Shown here one piece after another: positions 3,480 through 4,626 of a stretch of 64,000 nucleotides of DNA; positions within the stretch are counted from its first letter, which is position 1, and each line of letters begins with the position of its first letter. The stretch is from the NCBI RefSeq assembly GCF_048403405.1, contig NZ_CP183129.1, one strand, 5' to 3'. The DNA comes from Escherichia coli (GTDB lineage Bacteria; Pseudomonadota; Gammaproteobacteria; Enterobacterales; Enterobacteriaceae). The translations under genes were made by a program, and so were the position numbers. A model generated the notes under the pieces. That model saw only the letters and a program-made list of their open reading frames with translations. It was not told the origin of the DNA and did no database searches.

Positions 3480-3576
3480 TGGGGGAGACTATATAAGGTC
3501 TCGGACTGTCCCCTCGCCCCTTTGGGGAGAGGGAGAAAAACGTGTACGACTTTAACTTTTTCGCAGTATTGCCGTC

Positions 3577-4335
3577 CTACAAAATCGTCTCTTCCGTCAA
3601 AATCCTGCGCGCGCCTAAAAAATGATCCTGCCAGAAAGGTTCAGCTAACCGACTTACCCGAATGGTTTCCCCGGTGCGCGGCGACTCAATAAACTGTCCA
3701 TCGCCCAGATACACGCCCATATGGTCGGCAATCTCGCGGCTGTGGATATGAAAAAACAGCAAATCTCCCCGGCGCAGGTCGTTATTCGCCACAATGGTTG
3801 CCCGGCGAAAGTGATACATCTCATTAGCCGTGCGTGGGAGCTTCGCCTCGAGGATCTTGTTGTAGGCATAAAAAACCAACCCGCTACAGTCGAAGCCTTG
3901 ATCGGGCCGCGTGCCGCCCCAGACGTAAGGCTTGCCAAGCTGCTGCTCCAGGCGGTGAATCGCCACTTCGGTGATGTTGTGTAGATGGTCGCTGCTTAAG
4001 AAATGGTTGTTCTCCGCCAGCGCCTGCCAGCGTCTGTCACTTGCCTTGAGCGGCGCAGGAAACCATTCTGGATGCTGTTTTATCTGTTCGCGGTTGTGCT
4101 GGCGCAGCGCCTTTCTGCTTTCGGCATTGCCTTCCACAATATAGCTGGCCTGTTTTTTCAGATGGGTTTGGTACTGTTTTAATAAACGCGCACGGTTTTG
4201 CATCCGCTGGCGGGCGGCGTAGCTGAAAGAGATATGTGATGTGGTGGCGCTGGCGAGTAAAGGGAGCAAAACGCATAACGAAAACACGCCTGGATGCAGA
4301 AATCTGCCGAGCAAGAACGAAGACATGAAGGACAT
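3577..4335 (-). CDS. yafL: NlpC/P60 (C40) family peptidase lipoprotein
   Basis: 252 aa ORF with signal peptide and NlpC/P60 motifs (YVWGGTRPDQGFDCSGLV ... DHMGVYLGDGQFIESP). Confidence 0.8.
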   Translation of the reverse strand: MSFMSSFLLGRFLHPGVFSLCVLLPLLASATTSHISFSYAARQRMQNRARLLKQYQTHLKKQASYIVEGNAESRKALRQHNREQIKQHPEWFPAPLKASDRRWQALAENNHFLSSDHLHNITEVAIHRLEQQLGKPYVWGGTRPDQGFDCSGLVFYAYNKILEAKLPRTANEMYHFRRATIVANNDLRRGDLLFFHIHSREIADHMGVYLGDGQFIESPRTGETIRVSRLAEPFWQDHFLGARRILTEETIL

Positions 4336-4626
4336 AAACCGGCTGAATGAAGGTGAGAATTTTAAAAGACCAGAGGAGTAAACGGGATTATTAATTGCTT
4401 ATTTGCATATTACTATTGAGGTTTCATAATCTTAGGAAATAAATGATACATGCGCTTTTCGGACTATTGAAAACTGCCCCTGTGCTAAATTTGTAAACCC
4501 TGCGCCGACAGGCTTGCGTAAAACTCTTTTGGTGATAATGTGAGCCTTCCCAATCCAGACTATTCCGATTTGGGATCCATTTTGCCGTCCTGGCGTGTGT
4601 AACCGTTTTATCAAGGAATAAGCAGT

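What the first reader, a model, noticed from the sequence alone, without database searches (positions are those of the whole stretch)
3480..4626. rayT and the dinJ-yafQ toxin-antitoxin pair appear absent
As I recall the K-12 order (yafK, yafQ, dinJ, yafL, rayT, lfhA), the lfhA'-yafL gap here is only ~100 bp with no REP-associated tyrosine transposase, and the yafL-yafK gap is ~290 bp with no credible ORF. The strain therefore seems to lack both the REP-mobilising transposase and the DinJ-YafQ module.
Basis: partly seen in the sequence, partly recalled or inferred. Interest (0 to 1): 0.4.

Follow-up and report, generated by a model that had tools for sequence, protein, structure and literature searches.

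The report
E. coli locus lacking rayT, dinJ-yafQ
This E. coli strain really does lack the REP transposase gene rayT and the DinJ-YafQ toxin-antitoxin pair at their usual places, but each is missing from about a third of sequenced E. coli, so the finding is ordinary.

Summary
The window runs lafU'-lfhA'-yafL-dpaA(yafK)-yafJ-gmhA-fadE, in reverse orientation to K-12. Only 97 bp separate lfhA' from yafL, and 300 bp separate yafL from dpaA. No RayT, DinJ or YafQ homologue is encoded anywhere in the 64 kb.

Six complete genomes are 100% identical over 1.6 kb of the locus. None has rayT-like or dinJ-yafQ-like DNA elsewhere on its chromosome.

This is a known polymorphism. Among 5,426 complete E. coli genomes, rayT is present in 66% and dinJ-yafQ in 62%.

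The two absences have different histories.
- The yafL-dpaA region here is the ancestral form without the toxin-antitoxin pair. E. albertii, two other Escherichia genomes and Citrobacter share it. K-12 carries an insertion that also replaced the codons for YafL's signal peptide.
- At the rayT site, the transposase and its flanking REP arrays (the REPtron) are replaced by a BoxC/TMECO repeat pair collapsed to a single hairpin. Only 9 nt of a REP head remain, overlapping the yafL stop codon.

This BoxC form occurs in about 2.3% of genomes. The main text of the REPtron paper describes only hicAB replacement and precise excision. Interest is low.

The parts
1761..3479 (+). lfhA' (fhiA), a 5'-truncated Flag-2 flagellar export pseudogene. 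It has the same lafU'/lfhA' deletion junction as K-12. It ends ...ELS-TGA, like the Citrobacter ...ALS-stop ending.
3480..3576 (.). 97-bp lfhA'-yafL spacer, occupying the position of the K-12 REPtron (BIME-rayT-BIME, 896 bp replaced). It holds no rayT, no hicAB and no complete REP.
3511..3533 (+). CCCTCGCCCCTTTGGGGAGAGGG, the first two blocks of a BoxC/TMECO motif. It is the remnant of an inverted TMECO pair after a 64-bp deletion between GAGGG repeats. It now forms a 10-bp hairpin with one mismatch.
3572..3580 (-). GTAGGACGG on the minus strand, the 5' head of a y-type REP. Its TAG is the yafL stop codon. It is identical to the first 9 nt of the REP that abuts yafL in K-12, E. albertii and Escherichia sp. 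E1V33.
3577..4326 (-). yafL, an intact NlpC/P60 (C40) peptidase gene. Its N-terminal signal-peptide codons are of the ancestral Escherichia type, not the K-12 type.
4255..4486 (.). 232-bp segment (5' end of yafL plus the upstream region) that is replaced in K-12 by 838 bp carrying a different yafL 5' end, dinJ and yafQ. It is homologous to the same region of E. albertii (76%), E1V33 (81%), SCPM-O-B-8794 (79%) and B2 strains (92%).
4487..4626 (+). 140-bp region upstream of dpaA, conserved across the Escherichia and Citrobacter genomes sampled. The K-12 dinJ-yafQ segment begins immediately upstream of it.
4627..5367 (+). dpaA (yafK), an intact gene for a YkuD-fold peptidoglycan-Lpp amidase.

Best explanation
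The window carries one of several naturally occurring versions of a short stretch of the E. coli chromosome that has two variable slots.

Slot B (yafL-dpaA) comes in two forms. The window has the ancestral intergenic region, which never received dinJ-yafQ. K-12-type strains carry an 838-bp segment that brought in dinJ-yafQ and overwrote yafL's promoter and signal-peptide codons.

Slot A (lfhA-yafL) comes in several forms:
- REPtron: rayT flanked by REP arrays (BIMEs), about 66% of genomes.
- hicAB cassette, about 27%.
- BIMEs only, after precise excision of rayT.
- The window's form, about 2.3%: an approximately 130-bp BoxC/TMECO inverted-pair element.

In the window this pair has collapsed by a 64-bp deletion between GAGGG repeats. 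I infer that this form arose from a REP-bearing ancestor by replacement, because a 9-nt REP head survives at the yafL stop codon.

Functional consequences, all inferred:
- There is no RayT to cleave or mobilise REPs, so the REP population should decay passively.
- There is no YafQ/DinJ module.
- dpaA is driven by its own conserved upstream region rather than by read-through from dinJ-yafQ.
For: Anatomy and breakpoints.

Frequencies in 5,426 complete genomes:
- rayT 3,575
- dinJ-yafQ 3,340
- TA-free slot B 2,083; 2,083 + 3,340 = 5,423
- window-type slot A 126
- hicAB 1,480

Polarity of slot B:
- Ten of the 11 Citrobacter loci span the yafL-dpaA gap and none has dinJ-yafQ; no Citrobacter locus has rayT. 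E. albertii, Escherichia sp. E1V33 and SCPM-O-B-8794 have rayT but no dinJ-yafQ.
- Their YafL N-termini and upstream DNA match the window, not K-12.
- The K-12 N-terminus occurs only together with dinJ-yafQ (K-12, MOD1-EC7003) or in the K-12-type yafL of contig L008, which ends before the slot.

Slot A filler:
- PCN033 and Pseudocitrobacter vendiensis carry the uncollapsed version. Its two halves match the TMECO type A mm and type B mm sequences of Table 1 in PMC4666352 exactly.
- The core is a dispersed repeat with a median of 21 places per genome.
- The REP head GTAGGACGG is shared with the K-12 allele.

No copies elsewhere.

Literature: tnpAREP is present in 74 of 110 genomes at this single locus, and was lost by hicAB replacement or by precise excision (PMC3333891). 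TMECO loci are unusually variable between strains (PMC4666352). RAYT-less E. coli exist and carry fewer REPINs (PMC8049555).
Against: - The direction of change at slot A rests on only 5 nt beyond the yafL stop codon, plus the presence of rayT in sister species.
- The window-type allele keeps the Citrobacter-like LfhA ending (...LS-stop) and co-occurs with intact Flag-2 clusters. That fits an old allele as well as a derived one.
- Frequencies come from a non-dereplicated, clinically biased set of complete genomes.
- The 'rest' class (about 245 genomes) was obtained by subtraction, not inspected.
- No expression or REP-mobility data exist for this strain.
- The REP census is anecdotal: 1 REP in the window against 9 in the homologous part of K-12, and 6 of those 9 are the REPtron's own.
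Confidence: 0.85

Rival explanations
1. Both modules were present in this lineage in a K-12-like arrangement and were removed by two independent deletions.
For: rayT at this locus predates E. coli. It is present in E. albertii and the three other Escherichia loci sampled (PMC3333891). A REP head remains at 3572-3580. Loss or replacement is therefore plausible for slot A.
Against: - For slot B, the window's 232 bp are not a deletion scar. They are a full-length orthologue of the E. albertii and other Escherichia sequence, and they encode the ancestral YafL signal peptide. K-12 has unrelated sequence there.
- For slot A, 88 nt of non-REP sequence (a BoxC element) are present. The event was a replacement, not a simple deletion.
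Confidence: 0.07
2. The BoxC-filler allele is the original Escherichia state of slot A. The REPtron was inserted into it later, so this lineage never had rayT.
For: - The lfhA ending TTG AGT TGA matches the Citrobacter ...LS-stop ending. Most rayT alleles have ...LM-stop.
- The same filler is found in strains with an intact, presumably ancestral Flag-2 cluster (PCN033) and in Pseudocitrobacter.
- Escherichia sp. E1V33 has rayT yet shares TGATGGG after the lfhA stop.
Against: - GTAGGACGG at the yafL stop equals the head of the adjacent REP in rayT alleles, which is hard to explain if no REP was ever there.
- rayT is present at this site in all four Escherichia loci sampled by the species-level scan (E. 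albertii, E1V33, SCPM-O-B-8794, MOD1-EC7003).
- The allele is rare, 126 of 5,426 genomes.
- Citrobacter has neither the filler nor REPs, only a 45-bp hairpin.
Confidence: 0.2
3. The genes are present in this genome, but elsewhere on the chromosome or on a plasmid.
For: A few rayT and dinJ-yafQ matches lie on plasmid records (9 and 12 places in the whole collection).
Against: - Nothing is found in the 64-kb window.
- Six complete genomes with a 100%-identical locus, and all 60 nearest genomes, show a single matching place per chromosome for a probe carrying rayT and dinJ-yafQ. The 12 nearest, which include those six, also do so at word-11 sensitivity.
- Genome counts for the two slot B forms sum to almost the full total, so dinJ-yafQ essentially lives at one locus only.
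- rayT is single-copy at a unique locus (PMC3333891).
Confidence: 0.03
4. The short gaps are an assembly artefact, for example a collapse of REP arrays.
For: REP/BIME arrays and palindromic BoxC pairs are difficult for short-read assemblers.
Against: - The same junctions occur in 126 (slot A) and 2,083 (slot B) independently assembled complete genomes.
- The filler is unique non-REP sequence.
- Both the collapsed and the uncollapsed BoxC forms are seen repeatedly.
Confidence: 0.01

Closest known systems
REPtron locus polymorphism of E. coli (Ton-Hoang et al. 2012, PMC3333891)
   Same: Same chromosomal slot between yafL and fhiA/lfhA. Same basic fact that about one third of strains lack tnpAREP/rayT: 74 of 110 carried it then, 3,575 of 5,426 now.
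   Different: The main text of that paper describes two routes of loss: precise excision that leaves the BIMEs (B2 strains) and replacement by hicAB (mainly B1). The window shows neither. It has a BoxC/TMECO element and only a 9-nt REP head. That paper's supplementary figure could not be read here.
BoxC / PIT / TMECO intrastrand-triplex repeats (Holder et al. 2015, PMC4666352)
   Same: The uncollapsed allele (PCN033) contains two inverted copies identical to published TMECO type A mm and type B mm sequences. It is intergenic and sits at a strain-variable locus, as reported for TMECO loci.
   Different: The window copy lacks the third G-block and the whole second copy. It no longer fits the triplex consensus and is just a hairpin.
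K-12 dinJ-yafQ type II toxin-antitoxin locus
   Same: Same neighbourhood (yafL / dpaA).
   Different: The module is absent. The window shows the pre-insertion sequence. K-12's segment also carries a different 5' end of yafL, so the two forms encode different YafL signal peptides.
hicAB cassette allele (for example strain DETEC-P649, and IAI1 in PMC3333891)
   Same: Same left junction, immediately after lfhA ...AGT TGA T. Flanks are 98.0-100% identical to the window by segment (99.7% over the matched part of the 1.6-kb probe).
   Different: It carries HicA/HicB, has a TAA stop for yafL and shows no REP trace. The window has no toxin-antitoxin pair in this slot.

Membership tests
REPtron (rayT/tnpAREP with flanking BIMEs) | Y1 HUH tyrosine transposase gene between yafL and lfhA | tested here: not met
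   tblastn of K-12 RayT against the whole window gives a best E of 0.23. The spacer is only 97 bp.
REPtron (rayT/tnpAREP with flanking BIMEs) | REP/BIME arrays flanking the gene | tested here: not met
   No REP within 3 mismatches of the consensus anywhere in the window. Only GTAGGACGG at 3572-3580 remains.
rayT-less 'precise excision' allele (B2 type, e.g. CFT073, ATCC 25922) | BIMEs retained between lfhA and yafL without rayT | tested here: not met
   ATCC 25922 has a 274-bp REP-only spacer. The window's spacer has no similarity to it except the last 9 nt.
hicAB replacement allele | hicA and hicB between lfhA and yafL | tested here: not met
   tblastn of HicA and HicB against the window finds nothing significant.
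DinJ-YafQ type II toxin-antitoxin | Adjacent dinJ (antitoxin) and yafQ (RelE-fold toxin) ORFs upstream of dpaA | tested here: not met
   tblastn best E is 1.7 or worse. The ORFs in the gap have no Pfam match. The junction probe shows the toxin-antitoxin-free form.
BoxC / TMECO triplex motif | CCCTCNCCC-N3-6-GGGNGAGGG-N3-GGGNGAGGG (PMC4666352) | tested here: not met
   Only CCCTCGCCCC-TTT-GGGGAGAGGG is present (3511-3533), and the third block is deleted. The full consensus is met twice in the orthologous PCN033 spacer.
BoxC / TMECO triplex motif | Dispersed intergenic repeat, about 20 copies per E. coli genome | tested here: met
   The core of the uncollapsed spacer (nt 21-148) matches a median of 21 places per genome.

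The most novel reading that the evidence does not exclude
The BoxC/TMECO-filled spacer is a third, so far undescribed way in which E. coli lost its REPtron, exchanged between lineages by recombination in the flanking genes. Separately, the dinJ-yafQ insertion in K-12-type strains rewrote the signal peptide and promoter of the neighbouring peptidase gene yafL.
Probability: 0.35. Interest if true: 0.25.

Novelty: already known. Interest (0 to 1): 0.12.

Why it matters
It matters little beyond bookkeeping. The strain is a natural rayT-null, dinJ-yafQ-null E. coli. Genomes of this kind are useful as comparators for studying REP/REPIN decay without the transposase, and for toxin-antitoxin studies that take K-12 as the default.

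Two small points may interest specialists:
- K-12's YafL carries a non-ancestral signal peptide that arrived with dinJ-yafQ.
- A BoxC/TMECO element sits exactly where the REPtron was lost. This adds one more case to the reported link between these repeats and local genome variability.

Tried and rejected
- Rfam scan of 3300-4800 with permissive thresholds found only a chance-level hit: Antizyme_FSE, 20 bits against a cut-off of 40, E = 0.23.
- The promoter/terminator scan gave nothing above the shuffle expectation in the spacers.
- The small-inverted-repeat tool missed the BoxC hairpin. Folding the 97 nt shows it, with z = -2.1.
- The small ORFs in the gaps (72, 60 and 56 aa) have no Pfam match and are not annotated, so I rejected them as genes.
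- A REP census as a test of 'REP decay' covers too small a region to mean much.
- I looked for homology between K-12's dinJ-yafL spacer and the other genera. Only a 48-nt weak match to C. amalonaticus turned up, so the donor of the K-12 segment is unresolved.
- No supplementary files are held for the REPtron paper, so I could not check whether its Figure S4 already shows the BoxC allele.
- I did not assign a phylogroup or sequence type to the source strain.

Full report
**What is in the sequence.**

The window is E. coli, in reverse orientation to K-12 map position 240-252 kb. ORF listing, the raw sequence and the PGAP annotation of a 100%-identical complete genome (TUM14771) agree on the layout:
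- lafU' and lfhA' are Flag-2 pseudogene remnants; lfhA' ends at 3479.
- yafL lies at 3577-4326 (-).
- dpaA/yafK lies at 4627-5367 (+).
- yafJ, gmhA and fadE follow.

The two gaps are 97 bp and 300 bp.

blastn against K-12 gives the breakpoints:
- Window 3475-3571 replaces 896 bp of K-12 (BIME-rayT-BIME).
- Window 4255-4486 replaces 838 bp of K-12 (first 72 nt of yafL, promoters, dinJ, yafQ).

tblastn with K-12 RayT, DinJ and YafQ, and with HicA/HicB, finds nothing in the 64 kb. The small ORFs in the gaps are unannotated and have no Pfam match.

**Are the genes elsewhere?**

The source genome is not available, so I used the nearest complete genomes as proxies. I built a chimeric probe from window 3300-4900 plus rayT and dinJ-yafQ. 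The two genes were placed in the orientation that stops them from being joined to the main match.

- Six genomes (TUM14771, GN02461, 4621, MS 69-1, TUM1226, OX030728) are 100% identical over the 1.6 kb. Each shows one matching place on its chromosome, with megablast and with word-11 blastn.
- All 60 nearest genomes behave the same under megablast.
- Across the collection, dinJ-yafQ (3,340 genomes) and the toxin-antitoxin-free junction (2,083 genomes) sum to 5,423 of 5,426. The module therefore lives at essentially one locus.
- Plasmid-borne copies are very rare: 9 and 12 places in the whole collection.

Distant protein-level homologues cannot be excluded with these tools.

**How common is this?**

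rayT is present in 3,575 of 5,426 complete genomes (66%) and dinJ-yafQ in 3,340 (62%). The rayT figure reproduces the two-thirds (74 of 110) reported by Ton-Hoang et al. 2012. They showed that tnpAREP sits at this single locus and was lost in some strains (PMC3333891).

Other papers agree. RAYT-less E. coli carry fewer REPINs (PMC8049555). No type II toxin-antitoxin system is conserved across four distantly related E. coli reference strains, and these systems are unevenly distributed among phylogroups (PMC7167474, citing Fiedoruk 2015).

**Slot B (yafL-dpaA): absence is the ancestral state.**

I scanned one genome per species with YafL as the query and ran tblastn over the loci it returned.
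- Of the 11 Citrobacter loci, ten span the yafL-dpaA gap and none has dinJ-yafQ; eight show the full run gmhA-yafJ-dpaA-yafL-lfhA-lfhB. No Citrobacter locus has rayT.
- E. albertii, Escherichia sp. E1V33 and E. coli SCPM-O-B-8794 have rayT but no dinJ-yafQ.
- Only Escherichia sp. MOD1-EC7003 has both.

The window's 232 bp align to E. albertii (76%), E1V33 (81%), SCPM-O-B-8794 (79%) and B2 strains (92%). They do not align to K-12.

The YafL N-terminus encoded here (...GVFSLCVLLPLLASATTSH) is the orthologue of the one in those genomes. The K-12 N-terminus (MSLPSIPSFVLSGLLLICLPFSSFASATTSH) occurs only together with dinJ-yafQ (K-12 and MOD1-EC7003), or in the K-12-type yafL of contig L008, which ends before the slot.

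The breakpoints are sharp. One lies inside the signal-peptide codons. The other lies 140 bp upstream of dpaA, at the edge of a block conserved from Escherichia to Citrobacter.

So K-12-type strains acquired a segment that brought dinJ-yafQ and overwrote yafL's 5' end. The window never had it, or regained the ancestral form by recombination.

**Slot A (lfhA-yafL): a third rayT-less form.**

Comparison of representative genomes shows four states:
- BIMEs-rayT-BIME (K-12, B1172)
- BIMEs only (ATCC 25922)
- a hicAB cassette (DETEC-P649)
- the window's 97-bp filler

Genome counts are rayT 3,575, hicAB 1,480 and window-type junction 126. About 245 remain by subtraction.

The filler is not random sequence. 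PCN033, which has an intact Flag-2 cluster, has a spacer 64 bp longer. That spacer contains two inverted copies:
- CCCTCGCCCCTTTGGGGAGAGGGTTAGGGTGAGGGG
- the reverse complement of CCCTCGCCCCTTTGGGGAGAGGGCCGGGGTGAGGG

These are identical to the TMECO type A mm and type B mm sequences in Table 1 of Holder et al. 2015, who equate TMECO with BoxC and PIT elements.

The core of that spacer (nt 21-148) is a dispersed repeat with a median of 21 places per genome.

The window lacks the 64 bp between two GAGGG repeats. What is left is CCCTCGCCCC-TTT-GGGGAGAGGG at 3511-3533, a plain hairpin that no longer meets the triplex consensus. Only 22 genomes keep the uncollapsed pair at this site.

Holder et al. 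report that TMECO loci are unusually rearranged between E. coli strains. This locus fits that pattern.

**Direction of change at slot A.**

On the yafL side, the window reads TTG TAG GACGG-CAATAC... K-12, E. albertii and E1V33 read TTG TAG GACGG-ATAAGGCG..., which is the head of a y-type REP whose GTAG supplies yafL's stop codon. The hicAB allele has TAA and no REP trace.

rayT occupies this site in all four Escherichia loci returned by the species-level scan. The literature also infers early acquisition followed by later loss. I therefore infer that the BoxC allele replaced a REP-bearing one, with about 0.65-0.7 confidence.

Three things argue the other way:
- The allele keeps the Citrobacter-like LfhA ending (...LS-stop).
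- It occurs with intact Flag-2 clusters.
- It is found in Pseudocitrobacter.

The 'ancestral filler' reading therefore stays open at about 0.2.

The window's flanks are closer to a hicAB-allele genome (98.0-100% by segment) than to PCN033, which shares its slot A form (96.4-97.6% for lfhA and yafL). This suggests the slot contents are swapped by homologous recombination in lfhA and yafL.

**Consequences (inferred, not shown).**

- Without RayT, the strain cannot carry out the REP/BIME cleavage and recombination shown in vitro for the K-12 enzyme, so its REPs should only decay. The homologous part of the window has 1 degenerate REP against 9 in K-12, but 6 of those 9 are the REPtron's own.
- There is no YafQ ribosome-dependent mRNA interferase.
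- In K-12, dpaA is thought to be co-transcribed with dinJ-yafQ (PMC5120126). Here it must rely on the conserved 140-bp upstream block.

**Verdict.**

The phenomenon is already known and interest is low.

Two details appear to be new, each of modest weight:
- the BoxC-filled form as a third way of lacking the REPtron;
- the signal-peptide swap in YafL that came with dinJ-yafQ.

Noticed in passing
window 10937-41727: About 30.8 kb absent from K-12, lying between yafV and ykfM. The identical TUM14771 genome annotates it as a complete type VI secretion cluster (tssA-M, two hcp, vgrG), followed by an Rhs core protein, a small downstream ORF and an ISEc1 transposase.
   Followed up: partly
window 6168-6198 (yafJ-gmhA spacer): A single degenerate REP sits where K-12 has a three-REP BIME. 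It is the only REP-like sequence detected in the whole 64 kb.
   Followed up: partly
L001 (K-12) 6713-6784 versus window 4255-4326: K-12-type YafL has a different N-terminal signal peptide from the one in the window, E. albertii, two other Escherichia genomes and Citrobacter. The K-12 version is found only next to dinJ-yafQ. The donor of that segment was not identified.
   Followed up: partly
L010, L011, L009 (Pseudocitrobacter faecalis, P. vendiensis, a Pseudocitrobacter MAG): In P. faecalis and P. vendiensis the lfhA 3' end is 93-94% identical at the nucleotide level to the window's, as close as E. albertii and far closer than Citrobacter (80-82%). No dpaA/yafJ/gmhA was found upstream of yafL in any of the three. 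This suggests intergeneric transfer of the Flag-2/yafL block. Both the rayT form and the BoxC form occur in the genus.
   Followed up: no
window 1-3479; L006 (PCN033), L007 (Rb-50): The window has the same lafU'/lfhA' Flag-2 deletion junction as K-12. Other strains with the same slot A filler (PCN033, Rb-50, ETEC1738) keep a full-length flhA/lfhA. The filler is therefore either older than the Flag-2 deletion or has moved between backgrounds.
   Followed up: partly
L008 (SFGJ01000062.1): A 3.4-kb contig labelled 'MAG: Clostridiales bacterium' encodes E. coli YafL (98%), HicAB (99-100%) and LfhA' (98%). It is almost certainly E. coli contamination of that bin.
   Followed up: no
L006 (PCN033) 5947-5987: PCN033 has another BoxC/TMECO-like copy in the yafJ-gmhA spacer. 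In the window and in K-12 that spacer holds REPs instead.
   Followed up: no
L023, L024, L028 (Kluyvera, Phytobacter, Cedecea), yafL-lfhA spacers of 340-430 bp: These genera have a longer spacer that appears to encode a small protein with a hydrophobic C-terminus (...MEFVHRQEE... / ...MEFIHRQEEK...). Escherichia and Citrobacter lack it.
   Followed up: no
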